Positions 1-64,000 are shown, numbered from the stretch's first letter. The stretch: DNA of 64,000 nucleotides from an uncultured cyanobacterium (GCA_963793265.1 CAWBZI010000001.1:1792001-1856000), one strand, 5' to 3'. Notes: generated by a model not told the origin, from the letters alone. A program made the numbers and translations.

Positions 1-2
1 TT

Positions 3-2516
3 CTGACAGTCTTCATTGACAAACTTCGGCGTCAGCGCCGCACCCCCTAAAATCACCGGCACATCAATCCCATGCTCATTAAACCGAGCCAGGTTGTCTT
101 TCATAAAGGCCGTAGACTTCACCAGCAGGCCGCTCATAGCGATGCAGTCGGCCTGGTGCTCGTTGTAGGCCGCGATGATGTTGTCTACCGGCTGCTTAAT
201 GCCGATATTCACCACCTTGTAGCCGTTGTTAGACAAAATAATGTCTACGAGGTTTTTGCCAATATCGTGCACGTCGCCTTTCACGGTGGCAATTACCACA
301 ACGCCTTTGCCGGTATCGTCCGCCTCGTCCTTGTCCATAAAGGGCTCTAGATAGGCGACCGCTGCCTTCATGGTTTGGGCAGATTGCAGCACAAACGGAA
401 GCTGCATTTGACCCGAGCCAAACAGTTCACCAACTACTTTCATGCCGTCTAGCAAAAAGACGTTCACAATATCTAGCGGTGGATACTGCTCTAGAGCTTT
501 AGCGAGCTGATCTTCTAAACCAATGCGCTCGCCGTCGATGATGTGACGCTTGAGCTTTTCTTCGAGCGGCAGATTTTCGTCCTGGCTCGTGCGGAGCTGC
601 TTAGTGCTTTTGCCCGCAAACAGCGTCGTGAGTTCGCCTAGCGGATCGTAGGTGCAGGCGTCGCCTTCAAACTCGCGGTTGTCGTAAATTAGGTCGCGGC
701 AAATCTTCTGGTGTTCAGGCTCAATCTTCGCTAGCGGCAGAATTTTACTGGCGCTGACGATTGCGCCGTCCATGCCAACGGCCATCGCTTCGTTGAGGAA
801 GACTGAGTTGAGAACAACCCGTGAGGCCGGGTTGAGGCCAAACGATGCGTTAGAAACGCCCAGCATAATGTGACAGCCCGGCAGATTCTCGCGAATCATT
901 TTGATGGCTTTGATGGTTTCTTTGGCGTTTACTCTGTCTTCTTCAATGCCTGTAGAGATGGGGAGTACGAGCGTGTCAAAGAAGAGTTCGTAAGGAGGAA
1001 AGCCGTATTCGAGGGCGTCGCGATAGGCGCGTTGGGCGATCGCAAACTTTTTCTCAGCCGTCCGCGCCATCCCATCTTCATCAATGGTGCCAATCACCAC
1101 GCCCGCGCCATAGCGCTTAGCAATCTCAAGCACCTTAAAAAAGCGCTCATCGCCGTCTTCGTAGTTCGTCGAGTTGAGAATGCACTTACCGCCCGCTACC
1201 TTCAGCCCGGCCTCCATTTTCTCCCACTCGGTTGAGTCAAGCATCAGCGGCAGGGTAATATTTGTGACCAGTCGGGATACCAGCTCGCGCATATCGCGTT
1301 CGCCATCGCGGCCTACATAATCTACGTTCACATCCAGCACGTGCGCGCCTTCTTTCACCTGCGCTTTAGCCAGGGCCACTAGCCCGTCCCAGTCTTCAGC
1401 ATTGAGCATTTCGCGACACTTTTTAGAGCCGCTGGCGTTCAGGCGTTCGCCTACGATTAAAAATGAGTTGTCTTGTTCGTAGGGCTGCGGGCTGTAGATA
1501 GAGGCGGCAGAAGGGATGTAAGGAAGTTCGCCGTAGGGAGGCAGGGCCGCGCGATCGCCCACTTCTCTCTCTTTAGGCTTCAGGTCTTTTGAGAGTTCGG
1601 CAAGCTGTTGAATATGGTCGGTGCGCGTACCGCAGCAGCCGCCGATTACCTGCACGCCCAAATCTTCAACAAAGTGCATGAGCTGCATTCTCAGCTCCAT
1701 CGGCGTTAGGCGGTAATGGGCCTGACCGCCCACGTTTTCAGGCAGGCCCGCGTTAGGAATGCAGGACACCATGAAGGGCGAATTCTCAGAGAGATATTGA
1801 ATATGCTCCTTCATTTCAGTCGGGCCAGTCGCACAGTTCAGGCCCAAAATATCAATTGGGTACGGCTCTAAAATCGTCAGCGCCGCGCTAATTTCTGAGC
1901 CCACCAGCATCGTGCCAAAGGCTTCTACCGTTACCGATACCATCAGCGGCAGTCGCACCTGCTTTTTCTCAAAAATCTCTTCTACCGCCGTCAGCACCGC
2001 CTTAATTTGCAGCACGTCCTGGCAAGTCTCAGCCAAAATCAAATCTACGCCGCCGTCGATGAGCCCTTCTACCTGTTCTAGATAGGCGGTTCTGAGCGAG
2101 TCAAAGTCAATGTGGCCGAGCGTCGGCAGCTTGGTACCAGGGCCAATGGAACCTGCGACAAAGCGAGGCTTTTCAGGAGTGGAATAGTCGTCGGCTGCTT
2201 TACGCGCTAGCTCAGCGGCTTTTTTGTTGAGTTCGTAGGCGCGATCGCTCAAGTCATACTCAGCGAGCACCAGCGCCGTACCGCCAAACGTATCGGTTTC
2301 AATCACATCCGCGCCCGCTTCCAAAAAGCTGCGGTGCACCTTATCTACAGCTTCAGGCTTCGTCGCTACCAAATATTCGTTGCAGCCCTCGTAGGTTTCG
2401 CCGCCAAAGTCTGCTGCCGTTAGCTCCTGCATTTGCAAGGAAGTGCCCATTGCGCCATCAAAAACGAGGACAGGGCGTTCAGGACTTTTTAAACGATCTA
2501 GAAACAGACTTTTCAT
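3..2516 (-). CDS. metH: B12-dependent methionine synthase, N-terminal ~838 codons (runs off the window start)
   Basis: The reverse strand from the ATG at 2516 reads [25 protein letters not shown]...GCNEYL...[11 protein letters not shown]...GLNCATGP...[11 protein letters not shown]...IGGCCGT...[13 protein letters not shown]...[24 protein letters not shown] (Hcy-binding, pterin-binding and cobalamin-binding motifs). It is absent from the ORF track because the stop lies outside the window. Confidence 0.97.
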
Positions 2517-2678
2517 AGCAGCAGCGCAGTTTGGAAAAGGACAAGCAAAAAAACTTAAGAAAAGCTCAACTGTAAAGCTATTGTTATTATTACTAAAAAT
2601 CCACACACTGCCCTAACTCACGGCATGAGTGCGATCGCTGTTTGCATATCAACTTCGCTCATAGGATCGATAGCCCCC

Positions 2679-3116
2679 ATGAACGGTCTACTCCCCGGAA
2701 TGCTCCGCAGCGTGCACCACGTCGCGCTGAACGTAAAAGACATGCAGGCCGCCTGCGACTTCTACGGCAACACGTTGGGCCTGCACCGACTCGTGGGCGA
2801 CGAAGTACCTAAAACCCTCGTCACCTTAGTAGCCGAAGGCAAAGTCACAAACTTCCGCACCCCCGACGGCACCATTCTCGACCTCTTTTGGACACCTGAT
2901 TTAAACGCGCCCGATGCCGATCCGAAAAAGGGCTTCACTCGCGCTGAACATCTCGCCTTTGACATTGAGCCTGAGCAGTTCGATCAGGCGATGAGCTTAC
3001 TCACACAGGCCGGAATTGACTTCAACGGGCCAATTGTCAGGCCCACCGGGCGAGGCATTTACTTCTATGACCCCGATGGGTTCATGGTCGAAGTTCGCTG
3101 CAATCCCCAAGGCTAG
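2679..3116 (+). CDS. VOC/glyoxalase-bleomycin resistance family protein
   Basis: VHHVALNVKD...FYGNTLGL, HLAF and IYFYDPDGFMVE motifs; ATG at 2679 preferred over 2625. Confidence 0.88.
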   Translation: MNGLLPGMLRSVHHVALNVKDMQAACDFYGNTLGLHRLVGDEVPKTLVTLVAEGKVTNFRTPDGTILDLFWTPDLNAPDADPKKGFTRAEHLAFDIEPEQFDQAMSLLTQAGIDFNGPIVRPTGRGIYFYDPDGFMVEVRCNPQG

Positions 3117-3148
3117 ACACGCTGAATTTAGACCCTACGCTAGACCCT

Positions 3149-4648
3149 TTGGATCAATCAACAACGCCGCTTATTAGCGCCCTACAGCACTGTGCGAATC
3201 GCGCAAGCGCACCTTTTCATACCCCAGGCCACAAGAGAGGCCAGGGCATTTCTGAGCGGCACCGGCAGCTATTTGGTGACAAAGCCTTTCGCGCCGATCT
3301 ACCCGAACTTCCTGACTTGGACAATCTATTCGCGCCTGAAGGCGTTATTCTTCAAGCGCAACAGCTTGCCGCTGAAGCCTTTGGAGCCGAGCAAACTTGG
3401 TTCTTAGCAAACGGTTCTACCTGCGGCATCGAAGCAGCGATTCTAGCCACCTGTGGGCCTGGTGAAAAGATTATTCTGCCGCGTAACGTTCATAGCTCGG
3501 CTATTTCTGGGATGGTTTTGTCAGGCGCAGTCCCGGTCTATGTGCAACCTCAATACAGTCATGATTGGGACTTAACGCTGGGCGTTGATCCTGTTGATAT
3601 TGAGCGATCGCTTATAGACCATCCAGACGCCAAAGCGGTTCTGATTGTTTCACCAACCTATCACGGGTTTTGTTCAAATTTAGAGGCGATCGCGCATCTC
3701 ACCCACGCCTACAACCTGCCGCTCATCGTAGACGAAGCCCACGCCCCACATTTTGCCTTTCATCCTGACTTTCCAACTTCAGCGATCACGGCCACCGCAG
3801 ATATTGTCATCCAGTCGGCGCACAAGGTCTTAAGCGCCTTTACACAGGCCGCTTTGCTGCACGTGCAAGGAGAACGGATTGATCGCGATCGCCTCACCCA
3901 ATCCCTACAGCTCACCCAGTCCACTAGCCCCAGCTATTTACTACTCGGATCGCTAGATGCTGCCCGTCATCAGATGGCGACACAGGGGTTTGCGCTGATG
4001 GAACAGACCTTGGCTTTAGCCGATCGCGCTAGCCGAGAACTCAGTGAGATAGAAGGGCTGAGTGTGTTTCGACCCGGCGCAGATGCGGGAATTGGGGCGA
4101 GGATTTTAGGCGATCGCACCCGTCTCACCGTAGACGTATCGGCCTTAAACCTCACAGGATTCGAGGCCGACGACATCCTTCACAGCCGCTTTCACGTCAC
4201 CGCCGAACTCCCGACCCTACGGCACCTGATGTTCATCATTTCACTGGGCAACACGGATAGCGACATCACTCAGCTCGTCGAAAGCTTCCGTCAGCTCAGC
4301 CAGCTTTCAGCTTCCAGAAAACCAATTACAGATATCCATAAAAACGCTCGTCTTTACCCCAGTGAAAACGTGTTCGAGCCGGGAACAGAGCGTAGTCATA
4401 GCCCGCGACAGGCATTCTTCGCGCCCAAACATCCCGTTCCTATCGCTCAAGCCGTCGGCCATATCTGCGCCGAAACCATCTGCCCCTATCCGCCCGGCAT
4501 TCCGACCCTGTTTCCTGGCGAACCGATTACCGAAAGTGCGATCGCCTACCTCCAACACATTCAAAGCGCGGGCGGCATCATCACCGGCTGTCGCGATTCG
4601 AGTCTAGAAACAATCTTGGTAATCACCGACCGGCCCACCACAGGCTGA
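3149..4648 (+). CDS. PLP-dependent Orn/Lys/Arg decarboxylase family protein
   Basis: FHTPGHKRG, NGSTCG, RNVHSS, VDEAH, QSAHK (PLP lysine), STSPSY and CPYPPGIP motifs. Confidence 0.93.
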   Translation: MDQSTTPLISALQHCANRASAPFHTPGHKRGQGISERHRQLFGDKAFRADLPELPDLDNLFAPEGVILQAQQLAAEAFGAEQTWFLANGSTCGIEAAILATCGPGEKIILPRNVHSSAISGMVLSGAVPVYVQPQYSHDWDLTLGVDPVDIERSLIDHPDAKAVLIVSPTYHGFCSNLEAIAHLTHAYNLPLIVDEAHAPHFAFHPDFPTSAITATADIVIQSAHKVLSAFTQAALLHVQGERIDRDRLTQSLQLTQSTSPSYLLLGSLDAARHQMATQGFALMEQTLALADRASRELSEIEGLSVFRPGADAGIGARILGDRTRLTVDVSALNLTGFEADDILHSRFHVTAELPTLRHLMFIISLGNTDSDITQLVESFRQLSQLSASRKPITDIHKNARLYPSENVFEPGTERSHSPRQAFFAPKHPVPIAQAVGHICAETICPYPPGIPTLFPGEPITESAIAYLQHIQSAGGIITGCRDSSLETILVITDRPTTG

Positions 4649-4721
4649 TACGATCCGAACTTTAAGCTCATACACCAGCACACACTGTTCATCTCAAATA
4701 CTCCTCGCCTTCTTCCTTTGT

Positions 4722-5318
4722 ATGTCTGCACTTTGGCCCTACGTGACTCCCGGCATTCCCGACCGGCTCTTTCAGCAGCTACCGGGCATCCCACTCACCC
4801 AAAGAGAAGTGCGCTTGCTCGTCATCGGCTGCCTGCGGCTAAAAGCAGACGCCCATCTGTGGGACATTGGCGCAGGTACGGGCACCGTGGCAATTGAGGC
4901 CGCTCTGCTGTGCCCCCAGGGCAAAATTACCGCCGTAGAGCGAGACGAAGAAGTCGCGACCCTGATTAAGACAAACTGCGATCGCTTCTCAGTGACCAAC
5001 GTCAACGTCATCGCAGGCAACGCGCCCGAATGCCTCAACCATATTCAGGGCACCCCAAGCTGCATTTTGATTGAAGGTGCACCCTTGCAAACCACGCTCG
5101 AAGCCGCCGCTGTAAAACTCGCTATCGGTGGCCGCATCGTCGTTACAGCCAATAACTTAGAAGCGCTCTACACCGCTCGAGAAACCTTTGCCGCCCTGCA
5201 CTTGCGCAACATCGAAGTCGCTCAGCCCGCCGTCAACCGCCTGGAAACGAGAGGAAACCGTCAGGTTTTCGCCGCCGTTGATCCTATCTTCATTATCAGC
5301 GGCGACAAGCTCGAATAA
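4722..5318 (+). CDS. cbiT: precorrin-6B C15-methyltransferase (decarboxylating), CbiT subunit
   Basis: LWPYVTPGIPD...PGIPLTQREVR, WDIGAGTGTVAIE SAM motif. Confidence 0.93.
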   Translation: MSALWPYVTPGIPDRLFQQLPGIPLTQREVRLLVIGCLRLKADAHLWDIGAGTGTVAIEAALLCPQGKITAVERDEEVATLIKTNCDRFSVTNVNVIAGNAPECLNHIQGTPSCILIEGAPLQTTLEAAAVKLAIGGRIVVTANNLEALYTARETFAALHLRNIEVAQPAVNRLETRGNRQVFAAVDPIFIISGDKLE

Positions 5319-5384
5319 ATCTATGAAGGAGCCGCGAAGCTCATACGGCGCTTTATCTCAAGATTGTGCTTTTAATCTCAGAGC

Positions 5385-5398
5385 ACGTAGATATACTG
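5385..5398. promoter_or_regulatory. candidate transcription-factor site GTA-N4-TAC (ACGTAGATATACTG)
   Basis: Intergenic; matches the motif seen at 5549, 7722 and 20363. Confidence 0.4.
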
Positions 5399-5548
5399 AG
5401 TACGAAACAGTCGTGCCTTTGAACGAGATAAAGCGCGTTTCTACTTAAAAACGTGCTTTTGATACGCGTAAACAGACCGATAAAGACTGTTTAAAGATGT
5501 CGACACACTGTTTGCTGTTAAAAATTTGGCGTGCTCAAATTACGTATG

Positions 5549-5562
5549 CAGTATTTTTACGG
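5549..5562. promoter_or_regulatory. candidate transcription-factor site CAGTATTTTTACGG
   Basis: Exact reverse complement of 20363-20376; lies upstream of the HpsE-EAL gene. Confidence 0.5.
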
Positions 5563-5626
5563 TTCGCGTATCTAGCCTGGTACACGTGTACCTAATACGG
5601 TTCATCTTCCCAACTTGGTTCCCTTC

Positions 5627-7579
5627 ATGCCCAGTTCTGAACAGCTCAGCAGCTCAGAGATAGGATCCATCACCCTCTGTCAGCCGTCCGCCCGTCTTAG
5701 TGAGATGCACTCTGAGATGCACTCTGAGATGCACTCGCACCAGCCGCTCGCGCCATCACCAGCCATTCCATCACAGGCCATCTCATCAGAGCCCGTGCAA
5801 ACTATCCCACAAACGATCGACATCACCATCGCAATCCCGACCTACAACGGTGCCGCTAAGCTGCCGCTAGTGCTTGACCGATTGCGATCGCAGCTCAACC
5901 CAGACGGTATCAACTGGGAAATCATCGTGTGCGACAACGTAAGCACCGACGACACCCGCGAAGTCGTTCGCCACTATCAAAAAAACTGGCCCGCTCAGTA
6001 CCCGCTTCACTACTGCTTTGCCGCCGAACAAGGCGCTGCGTTTGCTAGGCAGTACGCCGTAAATATTGCAACCGGCGACATCATCGCCTTTTTAGACGAC
6101 GACAATCTACCGGCTGAAGACTGGATCGCCCAGGCTTATCGCTTCGCCCAAGTGCACCCCAAAGCAGGCGCATTCGGCTCTCAAATCCACGGCAAGTTTG
6201 AAACTGAGCTGCCCGCCGACCTCAAAGGTATTGAATGCTTTCTGGCAATTATCGAACGCGGCGAAAAGCCTCATCTATACGAGCCTTCTACTAAAATGCT
6301 GCCGCCTGCCGCTGGGCTAGTCGTTCGCAAACAAGCCTGGCTGAGCGCGGTTCCTCCTCGACTGTTTCTTAACAACAAAGGCAAGGAAGCCGGGCTCGCC
6401 AGTGAGGATCTAGAGGCCAATCTATACATTCAAAAAGCAGGCTGGGAAGTTTGGTACAACCCTGCGATGGTGGTGTATCACGACATTCCGAACGTCCGCC
6501 TGCAAAAGCAATACTTAATGACGCTGCTCAAATGCGTGGGCCTCAGCCGCTTTCATATTCGGATGCTAGGGATTCAGACCTGGAAAAAGCCGTTCTTCAT
6601 CCCAGCCTACATTGCCAACGACTTTCGTCAGCTCGTGCTACACCGGCTACGTCACGGCGCAACCGCTCAGCTCAACACCTTAGAAAGCTGTCAGCGATCG
6701 CTTCTCACCAGCACCGTCGCCAGCCCTTTATTCCTCTTGCGCAAAGTCTACCGAGACAGTATCGAGTCTCGCCAAGACCGACAGCATAGCGATCGCGCCC
6801 AATGGCTCGCCATCATCGCCAAAGCCTTTGAAAACGACCAGTTTGCGCTCTATCAGCAGCCCGTTATTCAAGTAGGCCAGCACAGCGATCCATCAAGTTC
6901 AGGCCAAAAAGAGCTACTGCTGCGACTGTGCAACGACCAAAACGAATACGTCTTGCCCAGTAGCTTCCTACCCACAGCCAAGCGCTACGGCCTCATGCGT
7001 ACGATTGACCGCTGGGTGATTCGCCATCTGTTTAACTGGGTGGCCCGCCAAAGCCATCAGCCTTCGTTTGCAAAAGCTCTTTTGCAGCAGGGTTCCTCTC
7101 CGCTATATTCCATCAACTTATCTGCCGAAAGCATTCAAGACCGTAGCCTGATCGGCTTCATCGCTGACAAAATAACGGCTGCTAACTTGCCACCTGGCCT
7201 GTTTTGCTTTGAGATCGCAGCTAAGAATGTGATCGCGCTGCCCAGCCAAACCCGCGAGCTGGCAACCGCCCTCCATCAGATCGGCTGTCAGGTCACCCTA
7301 GATGATGTGGCCTTCAGCCAAAGTGCCACGTTCAGCCGCGAAATCACCGAGATCATTGATCATCTGCCGATTGACTACATCAAGCTAAATTCTGAGCGAA
7401 TGGGTGATCGTGAAATGGCAGGTAAAGGGGCGTGGGCTCAGATCAGGGCGCTGGTGAACAACCGGCCCGTGCAGGCGATCGCCAAAGGCATAGAGTCTCA
7501 GGCCACGCTCGAAGCCGTACAGGCGCAGGGCATTCGCTACGCCCAAGGCTACCAAACCGGACGCCCTCAGCTCTTATAA
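5627..7579 (+). CDS. HpsE-like GT2 glycosyltransferase fused to a C-terminal degenerate EAL domain
   Basis: GT2 part: IAIPTYNGA, EQGAAFAR, FLDDD, HPKAGAFGSQIHG, ASEDLE, GWEVWYNP. EAL part: FALYQQP, ELLLRL, PSSFLPTAKRYGLMRTIDRWVI, SINLS, LDDVA, IDYIKL, AKGIE, YAQGY. Start codon uncertain (5615 TTG or 5627 ATG). Confidence 0.9.
   Translation: MPSSEQLSSSEIGSITLCQPSARLSEMHSEMHSEMHSHQPLAPSPAIPSQAISSEPVQTIPQTIDITIAIPTYNGAAKLPLVLDRLRSQLNPDGINWEIIVCDNVSTDDTREVVRHYQKNWPAQYPLHYCFAAEQGAAFARQYAVNIATGDIIAFLDDDNLPAEDWIAQAYRFAQVHPKAGAFGSQIHGKFETELPADLKGIECFLAIIERGEKPHLYEPSTKMLPPAAGLVVRKQAWLSAVPPRLFLNNKGKEAGLASEDLEANLYIQKAGWEVWYNPAMVVYHDIPNVRLQKQYLMTLLKCVGLSRFHIRMLGIQTWKKPFFIPAYIANDFRQLVLHRLRHGATAQLNTLESCQRSLLTSTVASPLFLLRKVYRDSIESRQDRQHSDRAQWLAIIAKAFENDQFALYQQPVIQVGQHSDPSSSGQKELLLRLCNDQNEYVLPSSFLPTAKRYGLMRTIDRWVIRHLFNWVARQSHQPSFAKALLQQGSSPLYSINLSAESIQDRSLIGFIADKITAANLPPGLFCFEIAAKNVIALPSQTRELATALHQIGCQVTLDDVAFSQSATFSREITEIIDHLPIDYIKLNSERMGDREMAGKGAWAQIRALVNNRPVQAIAKGIESQATLEAVQAQGIRYAQGYQTGRPQLL
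5701..5736 (+). repeat. 12-bp tandem repeat x3 (TGAGATGCACTC; encodes EMHS)
   Basis: Read directly from the sequence. Confidence 0.9.
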
Positions 7580-7721
7580 GCTTTATATATTACAAGTTCG
7601 TCTTCACAAGCTTATTTTCGCAAACTTAAATAATCCTTAGTCAGCGTGAACATTGCGTAAACCCCAGCGCATTTCAATCGCTTTCTCGGCAACATCGCTT
7701 AATTTATGAAGCAAGTAGCGT

Positions 7722-7735
7722 CAGTAAATATACGG
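7722..7735. promoter_or_regulatory. candidate transcription-factor site CAGTAAATATACGG
   Basis: Same CAGTA-N4-TACGG motif, ~38 bp upstream of the GT4 operon start. Confidence 0.5.
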
Positions 7736-7772
7736 CTCGGCGCTGGTGTTCTTTTTTTAGGTGAGTTGCCCC

Positions 7773-8987
7773 ATGAAGATTCTAATGCTGGCACCGCATC
7801 CTTTCTATCAGCCACGAGGCACGCCGATCGCAGCTAACTTAGTGTTAAGAGTACTTTCTGAGCGCGGCGAACAGGTCGATATGGTGACCTTTCCTGAAGG
7901 CAGCGACGTTGACTATCCAGGCGTCACCATTCACCGTACGCCCGCGCTCAAAATCGTCGAAAACATCCGCCCCGGCTTTTCAGTTAAGAAAATTATCTGC
8001 GACGTGTTTCTGCTAGCGCGCGCCTTCCAACTCGCCAAGCGCAACCAGTACGACCTCATCCATGCCGGGGAAGAGGCAGTTTTCATTGCGCTCTTGCTCA
8101 AAAAGCTGCTGGGCATTCCCTATGTCTACGACATGGACTCTTCGCTCGTTCAGCAGCTTATGGACAAGCATCCGCGCGTTCGCTGGGTGAAAAAGCTGCT
8201 TCAGGCTTGCGAAGGTGTTGCAGTTAGAAACGCGAATGCAGTGCTAGCCGTATGTGAAGCGCTCAGAACTGAAATTCAGCCCTATCGGCCTAGAAAAGTT
8301 GACATCATTCCTGATATTTCACTACTCAACGATACGAGTGCGAGCCTTCAGAATGATACAGAGCACCTGAAGTCTCAGTTTCAGATTGAAGGCGTGATGC
8401 TGATGTATGTTGGCAACTTGGAGCGCTATCAGGGTATAGACTTACTGCTGGCTAGTTTTGCAAAAGCTTTGAAGTCTAAGCCGGACGCGCATTTAGTGGC
8501 GATTGGTGGCAATGCGGATGATGTTCAAAAGTATCAGGCGCAGGCGCAGGCTTTGGGGGTGAGCGATCGCATCCATTTCATCGGCCCCCGCCCCATTGCC
8601 AAGCTCAAGCACTACCTCGCTCAGGCCGACATTGTTGTATCGCCACGAACCCAGGGCAACAACACGCCAATGAAGCTCTATTCCTACTTGGACAGCGGCA
8701 AAGCGTTACTGGCTACCGACCTCACTACGCATACTCAAGTGTTGAACGACCGAATCGCGCTATTAGCGAAGCCAGAAGTTGACGCGTTTGCAAAAGGAAT
8801 TGAGCACTTAATTGAGCATCCTGAACTTCGCGCCAGATTAGGCAAAGCGGCTCAGGCATACATTGCGAAGTCTCATACTTACGAAGCCTTTTCGCTTAAG
8901 CTTGCCTCGCTTTACGACTGGGTGAAAAAGGAGCTGCCAGTTAAGGAAGTTGTGCCTGCTAAAGTACCTGCGACGATAGCGCATTAG
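7773..8987 (+). CDS. GT4 (GT-B fold) glycosyltransferase
   Basis: MKILMLAPHPF, YVGNLERYQGIDLL, ADIVVSPR..GNNTPMKLYSYL.SGK. Confidence 0.9.
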   Translation: MKILMLAPHPFYQPRGTPIAANLVLRVLSERGEQVDMVTFPEGSDVDYPGVTIHRTPALKIVENIRPGFSVKKIICDVFLLARAFQLAKRNQYDLIHAGEEAVFIALLLKKLLGIPYVYDMDSSLVQQLMDKHPRVRWVKKLLQACEGVAVRNANAVLAVCEALRTEIQPYRPRKVDIIPDISLLNDTSASLQNDTEHLKSQFQIEGVMLMYVGNLERYQGIDLLLASFAKALKSKPDAHLVAIGGNADDVQKYQAQAQALGVSDRIHFIGPRPIAKLKHYLAQADIVVSPRTQGNNTPMKLYSYLDSGKALLATDLTTHTQVLNDRIALLAKPEVDAFAKGIEHLIEHPELRARLGKAAQAYIAKSHTYEAFSLKLASLYDWVKKELPVKEVVPAKVPATIAH

Positions 8988-9049
8988 TTCGTGCCTGTTT
9001 GCGTCACATATCGAAATCCACCAGCCACCAGCAACAGGAACCTGTAACC

Positions 9050-10795
9050 GTGCATCGAGACTTAGCCGCTCTATCCAACCAATCTTTCGACGTGCTCGTC
9101 ATCGGCGGCGGCATCCACGGCGCTTGCGCAGCCTACGAAGCAGCCCTCAGAGGACTCTCAGTCACCCTCGTAGAACAGTCAGATTTTGCCTCTGGCACTT
9201 CGGCTAATAGCCTCAAGGTCATTCACGGTGGACTGCGCTATCTACAGACTGCTGACTTCAGGCGAATGCGCCAGTCGATTAAAGAGCGTCAGACGCTGAT
9301 GCGAATTGCGCCGCATCTGGTGCATCCGATGCCGGTATTGGTGCCGACCTATGGTCATGGCATTAAAGGTAAGGAGGCGATGACGGTGGCGCTGAAAATG
9401 AATGATGTGATTAGTGGCGATCGCAACTTCCCACTCAAAGATCCCCAAAAGCACATTCCCCCCGGCAGGCTCCTCTCCAAAGCTGCCTGCCTCGAACAGC
9501 TACCTGACCTTCCTACCGATGGACTCACTGGAGCCGCCCAGTTTTACGATGCTCAAGTTTATAACTCGGAGCAGCTTGTGCTGGCGTTTGTGCAGTCGGC
9601 AGCGCAGTATGGGGCGCAGGTTGCGAACTACCTTCGGGTTGTAGGGATAGCGCGAAAGGGCGATCGCGTTACCGGGGCGGTAGTGCAAGATCAGCTTGGC
9701 GGCGATCGCTTCACCATCCAAGCCAAAACCATCCTCAACGCCAGCGGCCCCTGGATTGATCAGCTCGTCTCTATCACCAAAGAGGCCACCGGAAAGGCTA
9801 ACACCGAAGCAGCGACAGCTAAAGCCGCGCCCAAACTAGCCAAGGCGATGAACTTAGTCACGCGGCCCCTGTTTGGCCCACAGCAAAAAAACGCAGTGGG
9901 CATCACTGGCAGAGCCTCGGGTAGCCGTCTATTCTTCGTCGCACCCTGGCGCGGTAAATCTTTAGTCGGCACGTGGTACGGCCCCAATAACGAAGCCATC
10001 TATCCACCAGCAGCCACGACCGCTGAAGTCACCGATTTTCTCACCGACATCAATCAGGCTTACCCCACTTTTAACCTCACCCCTGATGATGTGGAATGGG
10101 TACACTGCGGCCTCCTTCCGAGCGATGGCGTTTCTGCTAAAACAGGCGATATGAAGCTCACCAAAAGCTTTCAGCTCAAAGACCATCGACGTGATGGCTT
10201 AAAAGGTCTGCTTTCGATTAAAGGCGTTAAATACACCACCGCTAGAGACTTAGCGCGAAAGGCAGTGGACTGGGTGTTTCTCGATCAGCAGCGTAGCGCA
10301 CCGCCGTCTTACTCCCACAAAGAGAGATTGTGTGGGGGTGATATTCAGGCGTTTGATCGGTTTATGGCGATCGCAACCAAAACCCACGCCAACAAAATCT
10401 CACCCGAAACCATTAAGCGGCTAGTTCACAACTACGGCTCTGAGTATTCAAAAGTCTTACAGGAGATCGATTCACCGCTGACTGATAGCGCTGAGTCAGA
10501 CAAACAAATCCTCGCCGCTGAGGTGAGATATAGCCTCAGAAACACGATGCCTCAAACGTTAGCAGATGTGGTTTTCAGGCGTACTGAACTAGGCGCTACC
10601 GGACATCCTGGAAATGAGGCTTTGCAGCTTTGTAGTCAAATCATGAGCGAAGCTTTGGGTTGGAGCCCTGATAGACAGGCGGCTGAGATGAAGCAAGTTC
10701 TAGAAAAATTTGGCACTTGGCAAAGAAAAGAGGGCTCCAGTCAACCGTCTTTACCCAGAACGTCTGCCGAGCGATCGCTGCGGTGTGCGGTGTAA
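9050..10795 (+). CDS. FAD-dependent glycerol-3-phosphate dehydrogenase/oxidase (GlpD/GlpO-like)
   Basis: DVLVIGGGIHG, DFASGTSANSLKVIHGGLRYLQ, NASGPW, GVKYTTAR and the C-terminal LADVVFRRTELG motif. GTG at 9050 chosen as start. Confidence 0.88.
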   Translation: MHRDLAALSNQSFDVLVIGGGIHGACAAYEAALRGLSVTLVEQSDFASGTSANSLKVIHGGLRYLQTADFRRMRQSIKERQTLMRIAPHLVHPMPVLVPTYGHGIKGKEAMTVALKMNDVISGDRNFPLKDPQKHIPPGRLLSKAACLEQLPDLPTDGLTGAAQFYDAQVYNSEQLVLAFVQSAAQYGAQVANYLRVVGIARKGDRVTGAVVQDQLGGDRFTIQAKTILNASGPWIDQLVSITKEATGKANTEAATAKAAPKLAKAMNLVTRPLFGPQQKNAVGITGRASGSRLFFVAPWRGKSLVGTWYGPNNEAIYPPAATTAEVTDFLTDINQAYPTFNLTPDDVEWVHCGLLPSDGVSAKTGDMKLTKSFQLKDHRRDGLKGLLSIKGVKYTTARDLARKAVDWVFLDQQRSAPPSYSHKERLCGGDIQAFDRFMAIATKTHANKISPETIKRLVHNYGSEYSKVLQEIDSPLTDSAESDKQILAAEVRYSLRNTMPQTLADVVFRRTELGATGHPGNEALQLCSQIMSEALGWSPDRQAAEMKQVLEKFGTWQRKEGSSQPSLPRTSAERSLRCAV

Positions 10796-10857
10796 GTTTT
10801 CCGCCAGCCGTCCTATCATCAGGGTTTTCGCCATCTTTCACCAGCATTTCTTCCGCT

Positions 10858-11466
10858 ATGCCTTCACCCATTGCTCACTCTGTTACAGGCTACGCCCTAG
10901 CCCACATCCCGTTCATCAAGGCTCGCACCTTTCCCAGTCGGCTCTGGCCCATGACGCCGCTCGCCACCCTCTACGCCCTGTTCATCACCAACCTGCCTGA
11001 TCTAGACTTCGTGCCTCAGATCGTCACTGGATTGCGGTTTCATAGAGGCCCCTCACACAGTCTACTGAGCGCCCTTATCGTCAGCAGCCTGCTAGCCGGA
11101 ATCGTTCACTACTACCGCAAGTCTCGTGCAAAACCCGGTCGCTTACTTAACTACAAAAGCCTGTTTACCCTCACCTTCGGGCTCTACAGCTCCCACCTAT
11201 TGCTCGACCTGTTCACCCGTGGCGGCAACGGAATTCCGCTACTTTGGCCCATAACCGACCAGCGGGTTCAGCTTCCTTTTGCTATCTTCCCATCCGTCCA
11301 TCACTCGCTCGGACTCTGGAATGCTAGCCACATAGTCTTTATCAGCGCAGAACTCATCTACTCAGCCTGCCTGCTCACTAGCCTGTGGCTCATCAAATCC
11401 AACGCTCAGCCCAACGCCACTCAGCGCTCCTCAGATTCACAGCCAGATTCACAGCCAGATTCATAG
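10858..11466 (+). CDS. membrane-bound metal-dependent hydrolase (YdjM-like)
   Basis: MPSPIAHS, LPDLDF, FHRGPSHSL, SHLLLDLFT, LLWP motifs. Confidence 0.85.
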   Translation: MPSPIAHSVTGYALAHIPFIKARTFPSRLWPMTPLATLYALFITNLPDLDFVPQIVTGLRFHRGPSHSLLSALIVSSLLAGIVHYYRKSRAKPGRLLNYKSLFTLTFGLYSSHLLLDLFTRGGNGIPLLWPITDQRVQLPFAIFPSVHHSLGLWNASHIVFISAELIYSACLLTSLWLIKSNAQPNATQRSSDSQPDSQPDS

Positions 11467-11467
11467 C
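11432..11467 (+). repeat. 12-bp tandem repeat x3 (CAGATTCACAGC); the third copy supplies the TAG stop
   Basis: CAGATTCACAGC CAGATTCACAGC CAGATTCATAGC. Confidence 0.85.
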
Positions 11468-11468
11468 C

Positions 11469-12284
11469 ATGACTTCGCAACCCGATCAAACGCATCTAGC
11501 CCAAACCCACCTATTAGTAGACGCCCACGTTCACCTGCACGACTGTTTTGATTTAGCGCAGTTCTTAAACGCAGCCCTAACTAATTTTCAAAGGCAAAGC
11601 CAGCAGCTCAAGCTAGCGCCCCCAATCATAGGCGCGCTCCTCCTGGCAGAAGTCAGCGGCGTTAATGCTTTTGCGGAGTTAAAGGCAAACTTGCAGAGTC
11701 TTAATAGCCAGATGTCGGACTGGGAAATTTGCGCCACTGAAGAGGACTGCTCGCTTTGGGTTAAGCACAGCGACGGGCACGCCATGTTGATTGCCGCTGG
11801 TCGGCAGGCGGTAACTCAAGAAGGGATTGAAGTGTTGGCTTTGATGACGGCGGCTGTGGTTCGCGATCGCCTAACCCTATCAGACACCCTAGAGCAAGTG
11901 ATCGCAGCAGGCGGACTACCCGTGCTGCCCTGGGGTGTGGGCAAATGGATTGGCAAACGCGGCGGGCTCGTAAAGCAGCAGCTAGAGACGGCGAATGCGC
12001 CTTTATTTGCTGGTGATAACGGCGGCAGACCAGGCTTTTGGCCTCTGCCCGACTACTTTCAACAGCGCCTGCAGCTACCGGGCACCGATCCCCTACCGCT
12101 GCCTTATGAAGTCAGCCGCGCGGGCAGCTATGGCTTTTTGACTCGGGGCGATATTGACTGGGCTCATCCTTGCAAAAGTCTCAAGCAGATTTTGCTGGCC
12201 GAGAAACCTACTATTCAGGCTTACGGGCGATCGCTCTCTCCCCTAAAATTCATCCAAAGCCAAACCCTCATCCGCCTAAAGTAA
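11469..12284 (+). CDS. hypothetical protein, PHP/amidohydrolase-like metal-binding
   Basis: VDAHVHLH near the N-terminus, LPWGVGKW, GTDPLP near the C-terminus. Confidence 0.6.
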   Translation: MTSQPDQTHLAQTHLLVDAHVHLHDCFDLAQFLNAALTNFQRQSQQLKLAPPIIGALLLAEVSGVNAFAELKANLQSLNSQMSDWEICATEEDCSLWVKHSDGHAMLIAAGRQAVTQEGIEVLALMTAAVVRDRLTLSDTLEQVIAAGGLPVLPWGVGKWIGKRGGLVKQQLETANAPLFAGDNGGRPGFWPLPDYFQQRLQLPGTDPLPLPYEVSRAGSYGFLTRGDIDWAHPCKSLKQILLAEKPTIQAYGRSLSPLKFIQSQTLIRLK

Positions 12285-12324
12285 ATCTCACCCTTTTATA
12301 CGCACTTCTATCCACGCACCTACC

Positions 12325-13062
12325 ATGATCTCCACCCATCCCTTTCCTGAAACTGCCGATATTGAAACGTCTTCAGCCGACTACGCGACCCGGTTCTCAG
12401 GCCCCACGGGTCGGTGGCTATTAGACGTGCAGGCGCAGGCAACGCTGGCGATGCTGAAAGATTATCCGCAGGCCAAAATTTTAGAAGTTGGCGGTGGACA
12501 CGGGCAGCTAACTTCGCACTTAATCGAAGCAGGGCATTCAGTTACTGTGATTGGGAGCGATGAAAGCTGCGAAGAACAGATTCGGCCTTTGGTGGAAGCT
12601 AGGCAGTGCAAGTTTCAGGTCGGTAACGTGCTGGCAATGCCTTATGCCGATAGTGCTTTTGATGTGGTGATTAGCTATCGGTTTTTAGCGCATGTTGAGC
12701 AGTGGCAGGCGTTTATGAGTGAACTCGCGCGGGTGGCGAGCAAAGCTGTGATTGTTGACTATCCAACGTTGCGCAGCGTCAACTACATTACGCCGCTGTT
12801 GTTTTCACTCAAAAAAGGCGTGGAGGGCAATACGCGGCCCTATACCTGCTACGACGAGTCTGAGCTGATGGGCTATGCGAAAAGTGTGGGATTGGAGACG
12901 GGCGATCGCTATCCCCAATTCTTTTGGCCCATGGTCGTTCACCGAATGCTCAAAAAGCCCAAAGTATCAGCACCTTTAGAAAGCAGCGCAAGAGCATTAG
13001 GACTCTCTAAACTTTTTGGCTCACCCGTCATTACTAAATTCGTCAAAGCAGGAGGCAACTAA
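12325..13062 (+). CDS. class I SAM-dependent methyltransferase
   Basis: ILEVGGGHGQ, MPYADSAFDVVISYRFLAHV. Confidence 0.9.
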   Translation: MISTHPFPETADIETSSADYATRFSGPTGRWLLDVQAQATLAMLKDYPQAKILEVGGGHGQLTSHLIEAGHSVTVIGSDESCEEQIRPLVEARQCKFQVGNVLAMPYADSAFDVVISYRFLAHVEQWQAFMSELARVASKAVIVDYPTLRSVNYITPLLFSLKKGVEGNTRPYTCYDESELMGYAKSVGLETGDRYPQFFWPMVVHRMLKKPKVSAPLESSARALGLSKLFGSPVITKFVKAGGN

Positions 13063-13063
13063 C

Positions 13064-14098: not shown

Positions 14099-14141
14099 AC
14101 CGATCCCATACAACAACCCTATAAAGCCGCCCTTAAAACGC

Positions 14142-14903: not shown

Positions 14904-14953
14904 AGCATCACCCTGAAAGCACAAAAGAAATCCACACAGCCACGACACCCGAG

Positions 14954-16078: not shown

Positions 16079-16119
16079 TAGGCTGTATATTTGCAACATT
16101 TAACATTCGTTTTACGTTC

Positions 16120-17049: not shown

Positions 17050-17539
17050 TCCAAACCAAGTTACTGCGGCTAAGGCTTTAGCGTCTTTTGTTATTCTCAC
17101 CGTTATTTCGATTCAGTCGTACGCAGCCATACTTCACCGAGTCTGTAGTCGCCCGATACCGCTGTTCTGCGCCCTCCCAAAAGAGCCGGGGCTATATCCC
17201 TTTCTCGACTATCCCATGTACAAAACAGCGCACTTAGAAGGGGAATCTATTGATAACTATGCTCTAATTGGCGTCTTTGCAGACAACACTCAAAAACAGC
17301 TAGCACCCTCAGATTTTGGGCTGTCGCTCTATCAGTTCAATCGAGGGCTAGTCGAAGCTGTCAAAACCGATAATCTATCTAAAATACGAGACTACACCAG
17401 CGCTTACAACCAAATAAGCGAGCCGCCGTTTGTACAGCTACAGCTTGAAAATCGTCCCTTAGTAATTACGGCAGACGGGGTGAAAGAAGGCGTTAAAGCA
17501 GAAGTTAACCGAACTCCGGCGGCTTCCCCGGCTAAATAG
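17030..17539 (+). CDS. hypothetical membrane-anchored protein (probable partner of the HTTM protein)
   Basis: N-terminal hydrophobic helix, LYPFLDYPMY motif; overlaps the upstream gene within the operon. Confidence 0.65.
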   Translation: MATLKSSPNQVTAAKALASFVILTVISIQSYAAILHRVCSRPIPLFCALPKEPGLYPFLDYPMYKTAHLEGESIDNYALIGVFADNTQKQLAPSDFGLSLYQFNRGLVEAVKTDNLSKIRDYTSAYNQISEPPFVQLQLENRPLVITADGVKEGVKAEVNRTPAASPAK

Positions 17540-17593
17540 GTCAGTTAACACAATAATCGAACAATCCGTTCAACCATAAAGAAGCGCTAAGCA

Positions 17594-18865: not shown

Positions 18866-18868
18866 CTT

Positions 18869-58194: not shown

Positions 58195-58252
58195 GGTAAA
58201 TTCCTGAAAGGGAGGCCAAACAGGCCCCGCGTTGGATTAGTCAGTCAAGTAT

Positions 58253-63140: not shown

Positions 63141-63174
63141 TTCATTATTCATTCCTTATTCCTTATCCTCTTCC
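63141..63174 (+). repeat. degenerate 7-bp short tandem repeat (STRR-like)
   Basis: TTCATTA TTCATTC CTTATTC CTTATCC in the intergenic spacer. Confidence 0.55.
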
Positions 63175-63177
63175 ACC

Positions 63178-64000
63178 ATGTCTAGCGTTGTTTTTGAAAA
63201 AGTTACCAAGCAATACGAGAACGGCTACACCGCCGTCAAAGATCTCAATATCAATCTTGAAGACAAAGAGTTTTTGGTGCTAGTCGGCCCTTCTGGCTGC
63301 GGTAAAACGACCTCTTTGCGAATGCTTGCAGGACTCGAAGATATTAGCAGCGGCAGCATTTATATTGACGGTCAGCGCGTGAATAATGTAACGCCAAAAG
63401 ATCGCGATATTGCGATGGTGTTTCAGTCGTACGCGTTGTACCCGCACATGACCGTTGCCGATAATATGGGCTTCAGCCTAGATCTTAAGGGTGTACCTAA
63501 GAAAGAGATTCGCAAAAGAGTTGAAGAAGCGGGCAAGCAGCTCGGCATTGAACAACTGTTGGATCGTAAGCCTAAGCAGCTATCGGGTGGTCAGCGGCAG
63601 CGGGTGGCTTTGGGCCGGGCTATTGTGCGATCGCCCGCCGTTTTCCTAATGGACGAGCCGCTCTCAAACCTAGACGCTAAGCTTCGTGTACAGGCCCGAG
63701 CTGAGCTGAGTGAACTGCACAAGAAAGTTGGCACTACCTTTGTTTATGTCACGCACGATCAGGCCGAAGCAATGACGATGGGCACTCGCATTGCGGTAAT
63801 GAACAAGGGCATATTGCAGCAGATAGATTCGCCTCAGAATGTGTATGAGCACCCTAACAACATATTTGTTGCGGGCTTTTTGGGCAGTCCGTCAATGAAC
63901 TTCTTTGACGCCCAGCTCATTCAAAGCAACGGCGAACTCATCATCAAAACAGATGGCGGCATCTCAGTGCCCATTCCCCCCAACCGGCTTGAGCGCTATC
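63178..64000 (+). CDS. ggtA: MalK-like sugar ABC ATP-binding protein (runs off the window end)
   Basis: MSSVVFEKVTKQYENG...VGPSGCGKTTSLRMLAGLE...VFQSYALYPHM...LSGGQRQRVALGRAIVR...DEPLSNLDAKLR; not in the ORF track. Confidence 0.92.
   Translation, partial: MSSVVFEKVTKQYENGYTAVKDLNINLEDKEFLVLVGPSGCGKTTSLRMLAGLEDISSGSIYIDGQRVNNVTPKDRDIAMVFQSYALYPHMTVADNMGFSLDLKGVPKKEIRKRVEEAGKQLGIEQLLDRKPKQLSGGQRQRVALGRAIVRSPAVFLMDEPLSNLDAKLRVQARAELSELHKKVGTTFVYVTHDQAEAMTMGTRIAVMNKGILQQIDSPQNVYEHPNNIFVAGFLGSPSMNFFDAQLIQSNGELIIKTDGGISVPIPPNRLERY

What the first reader, a model, noticed from the sequence alone, without database searches (positions are those of the whole stretch)
1036..63633. Strand composition flips from G-rich to C-rich at HIP1 sites
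Seen: across many GCGATCGC sites the + strand is G/T-rich just upstream and C/A-rich just downstream. Hand counts over 40-nt flanks: site 39223 has 16G/3C before and 3G/18C after; site 10367 has 15G/3C and 2G/16C; site 49546, inside a minus-strand gene, has 14G/8C and 5G/16C. The pattern is also visible at 3885, 4110, 8563, 9417, 11863, 13190, 13796, 26513, 29955, 37845, 38428, 52957 and 63010, and in minus-strand genes at 27255, 34149 and 36308. It is symmetric about the palindrome, so each strand is G/T-rich 5' of HIP1. Known: HIP1 is a methylation target in cyanobacteria and its function is unresolved. Inference: a strand-asymmetric process anchored at HIP1 leaves a mutational footprint. 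One candidate is nicking followed by 5'->3' excision/resynthesis, which exposes the opposite strand to C->T and A->G deamination. That would be sequence evidence for a HIP1-directed repair or recombination system. The counted examples were hand-picked.
Basis: partly seen in the sequence, partly recalled or inferred. Interest (0 to 1): 0.85.

Follow-up and report, generated by a model that had tools for sequence, protein, structure and literature searches.

The report
Polar G/C skew around HIP1
In this cyanobacterium almost every copy of the abundant palindrome GCGATCGC (HIP1) sits at a switch from G-rich to C-rich DNA, written mainly into silent codon positions, which points to a one-directional DNA break, repair or recombination step that starts at this long-unexplained word.

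Summary
64 of 75 HIP1 sites in the window, and 84% of those scored genome-wide (6,884 copies), lean the stated way; random positions give 45-47%.

At fourfold-degenerate sites the G/C skew is about +0.5 just 5' of HIP1 and -0.5 just 3'. It decays with a length of about 65 nt and is the same for genes on either strand.

No flip appears at 22 other palindromic octamers, 72 palindromic 4- and 6-mers (GATC and CGATCG included), or 11 of 12 one-mismatch variants. The exception is GTGATCGC, the expected product of 5-methylcytosine deamination in HIP1.

The skew follows HIP1 presence between two species. Its strength varies among cyanobacteria and it is absent in one HIP1-dense genome.

My best reading is a recurrent break at HIP1 with 5'->3' resection and resynthesis. 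Whether the cause is mutation bias or fixation bias is open.

I found no published description. This scan has noted the same pattern before, on this genome and on other cyanobacterial DNA.

The parts
1036..63634 (.). Span holding all 75 HIP1 (GCGATCGC) sites of the window. Each is the centre of a G-rich to C-rich switch on the + strand, which is the same as G-rich 5' flanks on both strands.
   Evidence: 75 sites, 1.78 expected. (64 of 75 lean the stated way over 40-nt flanks). Window fourfold-site skew is +0.30 at 3-50 nt upstream and -0.52 at 3-50 nt downstream, on a C-rich local background.
39183..39270 (.). HIP1 at 39223-39230 with its 40-nt flanks, the strongest hand-counted example. It lies in a + strand gene (my call: 37393-40605).
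   Evidence: 16G/3C upstream, 3G/18C downstream. Gene call.
10327..10414 (.). HIP1 at 10367-10374 with its 40-nt flanks, in a + strand gene (8999-10795).
   Evidence: 15G/3C/16T/6A upstream, 2G/16C/4T/18A downstream. Gene call.
49506..49593 (.). HIP1 at 49546-49553 with its 40-nt flanks, inside a - strand gene (49222-50004). It has the same polarity as sites in + strand genes.
   Evidence: 14G/8C upstream, 5G/16C downstream; the 13 window sites in - strand genes have a mean statistic of 10.5, against 10.3 for the 58 in + strand genes.
39231..47174 (.). Longest HIP1-free stretch of the window. It contains an rRNA operon on the - strand: 5S at 41202-41319, 23S at 41449-44335, two tRNAs at 44646-44824, and 16S at 44977-46465.
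   Evidence: no site between 39230 and 47175. (Rfam matches at gathering score).
10771..10778 (.). One of the 11 window HIP1 sites that do not lean the stated way. The others are at 2631, 5884, 32915, 34455, 48254, 54591, 55608, 60115, 61249 and 62886.
   Evidence: the 40-nt statistic is -1 to -6 at these 11 sites.

Best explanation
HIP1 marks the fixed end of a recurrent, polar DNA-strand transaction. The octamer is recognised by an unidentified factor. One strand, or both, is broken there and cut back 5'->3'. The 3'-ended strand, which is the 5' flank of HIP1 on each strand, is then left single-stranded for some tens to hundreds of bases while the 3' flank is made anew.

Repeated over evolutionary time, this treats the two strands unequally. 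Silent sites then settle at G>C on the 5' flank and C>G on the 3' flank. The decay length of about 65 nt would reflect tract length.

Shown here:
- the geometry, and its specificity to the octamer;
- the concentration at silent sites;
- the link to HIP1 presence;
- independence from transcription direction, codon phase and regional skew.

Inferred, not shown: the break itself, the resection and resynthesis, the enzyme, and whether the asymmetry arises as a mutation bias or during mismatch correction.
For: 1. Size and shape. Fourfold-site GC skew is +0.50, +0.34, +0.22, +0.09 and +0.03 at 3-20, 20-50, 50-100, 100-200 and 200-300 nt upstream, with the mirror image downstream. It is identical for + and - strand genes. 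A single exponential fits with amplitude 0.62 and length 65 nt, plus a tail of 0.03-0.045 out to 1 kb.

2. Specificity. There is no flip at 22 other palindromic octamers. None of 72 palindromic 4-/6-mers exceeds an amplitude of 0.055; GATC (n=8,254) gives -0.008 and CGATCG outside HIP1 (n=491) gives +0.005. Eleven of 12 one-mismatch classes show none. Only GTGATCGC keeps it, at +0.17/-0.17 (n=386). That word is the commonest one-mismatch variant, with a 0.20 share.

3. It follows HIP1, not the protein. In 99 orthologue pairs with a congener (median 70% amino-acid identity), the skew at 3-50 nt is 0.27-0.50 both at HIP1 sites conserved in place (69 of 150 aligned in G000) and at non-conserved ones. 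It is only 0.05-0.12 in the other genome at aligned positions that lack HIP1.

4. It is not a structure or a motif. Mirror positions are no more complementary than composition predicts. K-mer asymmetry is explained by single-base skew, with r 0.92-0.97. Amplitude is the same in all three codon phases.

5. It is present in non-coding DNA, so it does not depend on translation.

6. It is two-sided and additive on regional skew from -0.16 to +0.15.

7. Its base spectrum matches this genome's own regional strand asymmetry:

| Slope against fourfold ln(G/C) | Regional | HIP1 flank |
|---|---|---|
| twofold ln(C/T) | -0.55 | -0.58 |
| twofold ln(G/A) | +0.45 | +0.56 |
| ln(purine/pyrimidine) | +0.48 | +0.52 |

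8. The geometry matches resected double-strand breaks. At human meiotic hotspots the strand left single-stranded is the one 5' of the break, and it loses C and A (passages read in PMC7615360).

9. HIP1 has been proposed experimentally as an addAB-independent, Chi-like recombination enhancer (abstract and Discussion of bioRxiv 10.1101/2024.09.10.611283).
Against: - No enzyme is known. Vsr (PF03852) and MutH (PF02976) were found in 0 of 5 genomes searched. A review reports mutH absent from all cyanobacteria it examined (PMC5101192, passages).
- Simple single-strand deamination does not give the observed spectrum. T is not enriched at fourfold sites, and G gain is larger than C loss.
- Amino-acid divergence between G000 and its congener is not raised next to HIP1. 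Identity is about 0.73 at 3-15 codons against about 0.70 further out for conserved sites, and about 0.62 against 0.615 for G000-only sites. A process that only adds mutations would be expected to raise divergence.
- One HIP1-dense genome shows no flank skew at all: G053, 459 sites in 200 kb, amplitude -0.01. The process is therefore not an automatic consequence of HIP1.
- Non-coding DNA shows only about a third of the fourfold-site effect. The same damping holds for regional skew (slope 0.18).
- Equilibrium composition alone cannot separate mutation bias from fixation bias.
Confidence: 0.5

Rival explanations
1. Polar mismatch correction, a fixation or repair bias rather than added damage. HIP1 sets which strand counts as 'new' in mismatch repair of replication errors, or in heteroduplex formed between genome copies or with transforming DNA. 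The known unequal recognition of mismatches (G-containing well recognised, C-containing poorly) then turns this strand rule into a G/C skew.
For: - Every favoured change on the 5' flank (any base to G, C to any base) corresponds to one class of mismatch: G-containing if the 5'-flank strand is the new one, C-containing if the 3'-flank strand is. This is my inference.
- The bias acts as a near-constant factor on G (about x1.7) and C (about x0.6) relative to A and T in fourfold, NNY and NNR codons alike. GC content is unchanged.
- Divergence near HIP1 is about 0.92 of that further away. That fits a re-weighting better than added mutation.
- Elhai proposed a methylation-directed, MutH-like nick at G-mC in HIP1 (PMC4390886, passages).
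Against: - The mismatch-recognition hierarchy is recalled knowledge from E. coli and pneumococcus. It was not tested here.
- By my reasoning, the simplest break-repair version predicts the opposite sign. In that version the invading 3' tail is corrected towards the intact donor, and poorly recognised mismatches escape.
- No MutH homologue was found.
- A decay length of 65 nt is short for known mismatch-repair excision tracts (recalled knowledge).
Confidence: 0.22
2. Natural selection on flank composition. G-rich 5' flanks on both strands serve HIP1's function. They might favour loading or pairing by RecA on a strand ending at HIP1, or binding by an uptake or processing factor. Weak selection at many silent sites maintains them, as in codon-usage bias.
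For: - The pattern behaves like a base-specific preference (G favoured, C disfavoured, A and T neutral) in all codon classes.
- There is no excess divergence.
- Strength varies between lineages and is absent in one HIP1-rich genome.
- HIP1 raises transformation and recombination efficiency in PCC 7002 (abstract and Discussion).
Against: - No specific oligomer is enriched beyond single-base composition, and there is no pairing signal.
- The effect fades smoothly to a skew of 0.03-0.05 at 300-1,000 nt. Per-site selection there would be minute.
- Its spectrum equals that of the regional strand asymmetry, which is unlikely to be selected for HIP1 function.
- T is hardly enriched, although GT-rich DNA is what RecA is recalled to prefer.
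- GTGATCGC sites keep the skew.
Confidence: 0.15
3. Replication-linked origin. HIP1 is a preferred start or end point of lagging-strand fragments, so the DNA just 3' of it on the lagging strand is made by the gap-filling polymerase. The flank skew would then be ordinary leading/lagging asymmetry in miniature.
For: The base spectrum of the flank skew matches this genome's regional strand asymmetry. The polarity (3' flank 'lagging-like') and a tract of tens of bases would fit primer replacement. This last point is inference.
Against: - For a given fork direction only one flank should be affected. Both flanks are affected about equally where regional fourfold skew is strongly negative, near zero or strongly positive. 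It is unproven that regional skew reports fork direction here.
- The genome has no clean replichores.
Confidence: 0.08
4. Artefact or trivial by-product: sequencing or assembly error next to a methylated palindrome, a hidden longer repeat, codon context, or hand-picking.
Against: - The signal sits at fourfold sites and is weak at codon positions 1 and 2.
- It is a unimodal shift across 84% of sites, and it is present on all 7 contigs.
- It recurs in independent assemblies of other species.
- Metagenome contigs from two studies match the window at 99% or more over kilobase pieces, though one of these may be the source sample.
- There is no extended motif or inverted repeat.
- Orthologous positions without HIP1 lack it.
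Confidence: 0.01

Closest known systems
Strand-asymmetric mutagenesis flanking programmed meiotic double-strand-break hotspots in humans (Hinch et al. 2023, PMC7615360; passages read)
   Same: A mirror-image strand asymmetry is centred on a sequence-defined site. The affected strand is the one lying 5' of the site on each strand, which is the 3' single-stranded tail after 5'->3' resection. That strand loses C (and A), with C>G, C>T, C>A and A>G changes, so transversions are included.
   Different: That work concerns eukaryotic meiosis, PRDM9 motifs and kilobase-scale resection. It measured de novo mutations and found hotspots to be mutagenic. Here the organism is a bacterium with thousands of palindromic sites and a scale of about 65 nt. 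Only equilibrium composition is seen, and no excess divergence appears next to the site. No break has been shown.
Elhai's methylation-directed mismatch-repair ratchet for HIP1 (Life 2015, PMC4390886; passages read)
   Same: It postulates an unknown nicking activity that recognises G-mC within HIP1, followed by excision and resynthesis of one strand. That would give HIP1 a role as an anchor of strand-specific repair.
   Different: The model was proposed to explain how HIP1 is gained. It predicts no polar flank composition, and the paper does not contain the word 'skew'. In addition, a HIP1-dense genome here has no flank skew. HIP1 maintenance and the flank footprint are therefore separable.
Replication-associated GC skew (leading strand G>C, with sign changes at origin and terminus)
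   Same: It is the same kind of signal: G/C strand asymmetry with weaker T/A asymmetry, strongest at third codon positions. In this genome the base spectrum is the same as the regional skew.
   Different: Replication skew changes sign once or twice per replicon over megabases. Here the sign changes at each of about 6,900 sites and decays over about 65 nt. It is independent of regional skew, and the polarity (G-rich to C-rich) is that of a terminus, not an origin.
Chi sites and the proposal that HIP1 is a Chi-like recombination enhancer (Kamoku and Nielsen, bioRxiv 10.1101/2024.09.10.611283; abstract and Discussion read)
   Same: A short, over-represented word is proposed to stimulate homologous recombination. 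After Chi recognition the surviving single strand ends 3' at the site and extends 5' of it (recalled knowledge). That matches the geometry implied here.
   Different: By that preprint's own statement, Chi sites are neither palindromic nor methylated, and its addAB deletion did not remove the HIP1 effect. I know of no report of a local compositional footprint around Chi (recalled; not searched specifically).

Membership tests
HIP1 (highly iterated palindrome 1 of cyanobacteria) | Exact octamer GCGATCGC, many-fold over-represented relative to composition | tested here: met
   75 in the window against 1.78 expected. 6,884 in 5.68 Mb, about one per 825 nt. The reversed-word control has 307 copies in the genome.
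HIP1 (highly iterated palindrome 1 of cyanobacteria) | Positional conservation between species beyond that of silent sites | tested here: met
   69 of 150 aligned G000 HIP1 sites are at the identical position in a congener whose proteins are 70% identical at the median.
HIP1 (highly iterated palindrome 1 of cyanobacteria) | Methylation by CGATCG- and GATC-specific methyltransferases | not testable with these tools
   C5-methyltransferase family hits exist in G000 (8 places), but their specificity is unknown. The excess of GTGATCGC (share 0.20) is indirect support for 5-methylcytosine at position 2.
Replication-associated GC skew | Sign change only at origin and terminus, constant over a replichore | tested here: not met
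   The flip occurs at most of 6,884 sites and decays with a length of 65 nt. It is superimposed additively on regional skew.
Methyl-directed mismatch repair (Dam/MutH type) | A MutH-family endonuclease that nicks at the methylated site | tested here: not met
   PF02976 was found in 0 of 5 genomes, G000 included; the control rings in E. coli. A review reports mutH absent from all cyanobacteria it examined (PMC5101192).
Methyl-directed mismatch repair (Dam/MutH type) | The GATC site alone directs the process | tested here: not met
   GATC more than 300 nt from HIP1 (n=8,254) has amplitude -0.008. CGATCG outside HIP1 (n=491) has +0.005.
Very-short-patch repair (Dcm/Vsr type) | A Vsr-family endonuclease | tested here: not met
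   PF03852 was found in 0 of 5 genomes; the control rings in E. coli, B. subtilis and Caulobacter.
Very-short-patch repair (Dcm/Vsr type) | Repair patch of about 10-20 nt 3' of the nick (recalled) | tested here: inconclusive
   The polarity fits. The footprint, however, has length constants of 27 and 99 nt (double exponential) or 65 nt (single), with a tail to 1 kb.
Chi-type recombination hotspot | Non-palindromic word with strand and orientation bias, recognised by RecBCD/AddAB | tested here: not met
   HIP1 is a palindrome (sequence). The HIP1 effect in PCC 7002 is reported to be addAB-independent. Enzyme recognition cannot be tested here.
Break-and-resection hotspot with strand-asymmetric mutagenesis (meiotic-hotspot type) | Mirror-image asymmetry, with C (and A) lost on the strand 5' of the site | tested here: met
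   At fourfold sites on the 5' flank, C falls from 0.28 to 0.11-0.15 and A from 0.19 to 0.17-0.18, G rises from 0.28 to 0.42-0.45, and T stays flat.
Break-and-resection hotspot with strand-asymmetric mutagenesis (meiotic-hotspot type) | Locally raised mutation rate | tested here: not met
   Amino-acid divergence within 3-15 codons of HIP1 is about 0.92 of that further away at conserved sites, and about 0.97 at G000-only sites. This is an indirect measure, and conserved sites are biased towards conserved protein segments.
Break-and-resection hotspot with strand-asymmetric mutagenesis (meiotic-hotspot type) | Physical breaks at the site | not testable with these tools
   This needs end-mapping experiments.

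The most novel reading that the evidence does not exclude
HIP1 is the cyanobacterial equivalent of a programmed recombination-initiation site. An unknown octamer-specific activity, possibly gated by methylation, breaks the DNA at HIP1 in these polyploid cells. The 3' single strand ending at HIP1 is then used for copy-to-copy repair or for integrating transforming DNA. On this reading the flank skew is a genome-wide, evolution-averaged read-out of resection or synthesis tract length (about 65 nt, with a kilobase tail) and of how active the system is in each lineage: strong in this genus, absent in G053.
Probability: 0.3. Interest if true: 0.9.

Novelty: new variant of a known kind. Interest (0 to 1): 0.8.

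Why it matters
HIP1 has been known for three decades without an agreed function. Current proposals are a repair ratchet, a Chi-like hotspot and an uptake signal, and all rest on indirect evidence. A polar footprint at silent sites adds four things:

1. The full octamer is recognised by something that acts directionally on DNA strands. Neither the GATC nor the CGATCG methylation site is enough.
2. It fixes the geometry: the special strand is the one whose 3' end points at HIP1.
3. It supplies a length scale.
4. It gives a per-genome measure that varies between lineages. That measure can be correlated with gene content to find the enzyme.

It also means that a short repeat shapes codon choice, and slightly shapes amino-acid choice, over much of the genome. 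About 58% of this genome lies within 300 nt of a HIP1 or decayed HIP1. Models of codon usage and of GC skew in cyanobacteria should take that into account.

Tried and rejected
1. Hairpin or inverted-repeat flanks. Mirror positions pair no more often than composition predicts (observed 0.250-0.258 against expected 0.251-0.261 beyond 5 nt). Amplitude is the same in all codon phases.

2. A polar oligomer of the KOPS or Chi kind. K-mer asymmetry follows single-base skew (r 0.92-0.97), with only modest residuals.

3. UV or dipyrimidine context. The shift of ln(G/C) varies only from 0.68 to 1.04 with the neighbouring base, and a 5' C or T has no special role.

4. Protein or codon context. Orthologous positions without HIP1 lack the skew.

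5. Transcription-coupled processes. The effect is identical in + and - strand genes.

6. Replichore test. The genome has irregular skew and no clean replichores. I used regional skew as a proxy.

7. Polarised substitutions. The nearest genomes held are only 64-85% identical in DNA, so silent sites are saturated. At equilibrium, polarised counts would not separate the models anyway.

8. Population variants. Runs X2-X5 are kept as contigs. The difference table was cut (449 rows not shown), and low-identity pieces from other organisms are mixed in. No usable variant set resulted, so no conclusion is drawn from it.

9. Gene-content clue. C5-methyltransferase hits (G000 8, G067 4, G029 6, G047 0, G053 0) and the GTGATCGC share do not track flank-skew strength cleanly.

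10. Blocking by a neighbouring HIP1. A second HIP1 20-300 nt away on the other side raises the skew only at 100-400 nt (0.19 against 0.14, and 0.06-0.075 against 0.025) and not at 3-100 nt. I could not interpret this decisively.

11. Contig G043:C1 (38 kb, 26 sites) and G064:C1 (83 kb, 16 sites) gave too few sites to score.

Full report
**Observation**

The window (G000 contig C1, 1792001-1856000) holds 75 copies of GCGATCGC, against 1.78 expected from shuffles. Of the 19 named sites, 18 have G>C upstream and all 19 have C>G downstream.

The named sites are the strong end of the distribution. The 40-nt statistic is (G-C upstream) minus (G-C downstream). It averages 19.1 for the named sites and 6.7 for the other 56. 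Still, 45 of those 56, and 64 of all 75, are positive, against 45% of random window positions.

Genome-wide there are 6,884 copies. The averaged + strand GC skew runs from +0.36 next to the site through +0.16 at 20-30 nt to about zero by 300-500 nt, with the mirror image downstream. AT skew is weaker. The per-site distribution is a unimodal shift: 84% positive against 47% for random positions. All seven contigs show it.

**Where the signal sits**

I called genes with a self-trained ORF and codon model (4,471 genes, 85% of the genome).

| Class of position | GC skew upstream of HIP1 | Source |
|---|---|---|
| Fourfold sites, 3-20 / 20-50 / 50-100 / 100-200 / 200-300 nt | +0.50 / +0.34 / +0.22 / +0.09 / +0.03, mirrored downstream | |
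| Codon positions 1 and 2 | shift of only about 0.05-0.13 from baseline | |
| Non-coding gaps (convergent, divergent, tandem) | about one third of the fourfold effect | |

The fourfold values are the same for genes on either strand. The 477 HIP1 sites that are themselves intergenic show the same reduced effect. A single exponential fits the fourfold profile with amplitude 0.62 and length 65 nt. A tail of 0.03-0.045 persists to 1 kb.

**Controls**

- Twenty-two other palindromic octamers show no flip.
- All 72 palindromic 4- and 6-mers with at least 30 copies away from HIP1 have amplitudes of 0.055 or less. GATC (n=8,254) gives -0.008 and CGATCG outside HIP1 (n=491) gives +0.005.
- Eleven of 12 one-mismatch classes show nothing.
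- The exception is GTGATCGC, with +0.17/-0.17 at n=386. It is also the commonest variant, at a 0.20 share. That fits recent decay of HIP1 by deamination of 5-methylcytosine; the methylation itself is inferred.

The footprint therefore needs the whole octamer, not just the two known methylation sites inside it.

**The skew follows HIP1, not the gene**

I compared 99 orthologue pairs between G000 and 200 kb of a congener, G067 (median 70% amino-acid identity). In G000, 69 of 150 alignable HIP1 sites are conserved at the identical position. At 3-50 nt the fourfold skew is 0.27-0.50 at both conserved and non-conserved sites. In the other genome, at aligned positions without HIP1, it is only 0.05-0.12.

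**What it is not**

- Flanks are not inverted repeats.
- No oligomer stands out beyond single-base composition.
- Amplitude does not depend on codon phase.
- It hardly depends on neighbouring bases.
- It is not tied to transcription direction.
- It adds to regional skew equally on both flanks, whether that skew is -0.16, 0 or +0.15. This argues against a replication-direction-dependent origin. The caveat is that this genome has no clean replichores.

**Spectrum**

On the 5' flank at fourfold sites, G rises from about 0.28 to 0.45 and C falls from about 0.28 to 0.11. A and T barely move, and GC content is unchanged. In NNY codons C/(C+T) falls to 0.26-0.34. In NNR codons G/(A+G) rises to about 0.65.

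The force therefore favours G and disfavours C in every substitution class, transversions included. Deamination alone (C->T, A->G) would enrich T and keep the purine share constant, and neither is seen.

This spectrum matches the genome's own regional, transcription-independent strand asymmetry:

| Slope against fourfold ln(G/C) | Regional | HIP1 flank |
|---|---|---|
| Twofold ln(C/T) | -0.55 | -0.58 |
| Twofold ln(G/A) | +0.45 | +0.56 |
| ln(purine/pyrimidine) | +0.48 | +0.52 |

Non-coding DNA is damped in the regional signal as well (slope 0.18).

**Other cyanobacteria**

Fourfold-site amplitude at 3-50 nt, from 200 kb per genome (profiles):

| Genome | Amplitude |
|---|---|
| G000 | 0.38-0.44 |
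| G067 (same genus) | 0.33 |
| G029 | 0.16 |
| G002 | 0.14 |
| G047 | 0.12 |
| G032 | 0.11 |
| G053 (459 HIP1 in 200 kb) | -0.01 |

The footprint is widespread but variable. It can be absent where HIP1 is very dense. Whatever maintains HIP1 is therefore separable from whatever writes the flank skew.

**Rate**

Amino-acid identity between G000 and G067 is about 0.73 within 3-15 codons of conserved HIP1 sites, against about 0.70 further away. For G000-only sites it is about 0.62 against 0.615. Divergence is thus not raised near HIP1. This argues against a process that merely adds mutations. It fits either a balanced mix (more change on one strand, less on the other) or a fixation-type bias. The test is indirect, and conserved sites are biased towards conserved protein segments.

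**Mechanism**

The geometry says that the strand whose 3' end points at HIP1 is treated differently from its partner for some tens to hundreds of bases. That is the geometry of three known situations:

- a nick or double-strand break at the site followed by 5'->3' resection and resynthesis;
- a Chi-like site that stops degradation of the 3' strand;
- a transforming strand that ends at the site.

The closest documented parallel is the mirror-image loss of C and A on the resected 3' tails around human meiotic hotspots (PMC7615360, passages).

HIP1 has been proposed on experimental grounds as an addAB-independent, Chi-like enhancer of recombination (bioRxiv 10.1101/2024.09.10.611283, abstract and Discussion). 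Elhai proposed it as the anchor of a MutH-like nick (PMC4390886, passages). MutH and Vsr families were not found in G000 or four other genomes.

I put break, resection and resynthesis at 0.5, polar mismatch correction at 0.22, selection on flanks at 0.15, a lagging-strand origin at 0.08, and artefact at 0.01.

**Prior description**

The two main HIP1 analyses contain no occurrence of 'skew' (PMC5861425 and PMC4390886). In the 2026 GBE paper the word refers only to uneven sampling (PMC13756078). Full-text searches for HIP1 or GCGATCGC with 'GC skew', 'skew', 'strand asymmetry', 'compositional asymmetry' or 'flanking sequences' found no description. The library lacks most subscription journals, and I read no supplements.

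This scan's earlier agents reported the same pattern on this genome and on other cyanobacterial DNA. I re-tested it independently here.

**Verdict**

The feature is real, strong and specific to HIP1. It appears to be undescribed in print. It constrains HIP1 biology usefully, but the mechanism remains inferred.

Noticed in passing
whole genome G000 (for example C4:60000-180000, and the window itself): There is a strong, patchy strand asymmetry that does not depend on transcription direction. Per-gene + strand fourfold GC skew has sd 0.27. Neighbouring genes correlate at r=0.44 (same orientation) and 0.42 (opposite), fading over about 10-20 genes. Some 20-kb blocks reach +0.45. There are no clean replichores. 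The base spectrum equals that of the HIP1-flank skew.
   Followed up: partly
window 41202-46465 (- strand): An rRNA operon (5S, 23S, two tRNAs, 16S) lies inside the longest HIP1-free stretch of the window, 39231-47174.
   Followed up: partly
whole genome G000: Several palindromes are nearly absent away from HIP1. GGGATCCC, GGCATGCC, CGCATGCG and CGGATCCG occur once each. GCATGC has 30 copies, AGGCCT 32, CTCGAG 47 and GGATCC 59. This suggests restriction avoidance. Eight places match the C5 DNA-methyltransferase family, one of them with internal stops.
   Followed up: no
200-kb samples L001-L062 of G053, G047, G029, G002, G032 and G067, compared with whole-genome G000: The decay spectrum of HIP1 differs between lineages. 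In G053, G047, G029 and G032 the commonest one-mismatch variants keep the CGATCG core (NCGATCGC). In G000 the commonest is GTGATCGC (share 0.20), and core-keeping variants are not enriched.
   Followed up: no
G000 genes with HIP1: The skew reaches the protein level. First-codon-position GC skew is +0.33 just upstream and +0.07 just downstream of HIP1, against a baseline of +0.20. Codons starting with G are thus favoured before HIP1 and codons starting with C after it. HIP1 codon phases 0/1/2 number 2,948/2,074/1,254.
   Followed up: partly
window 1-20000: Contigs at least 99% identical to the window occur in macroalgae and sediment metagenome runs from two studies (X2 and X3 have kilobase pieces with 0-7 differences). 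One of these may be the source of this assembly.
   Followed up: partly
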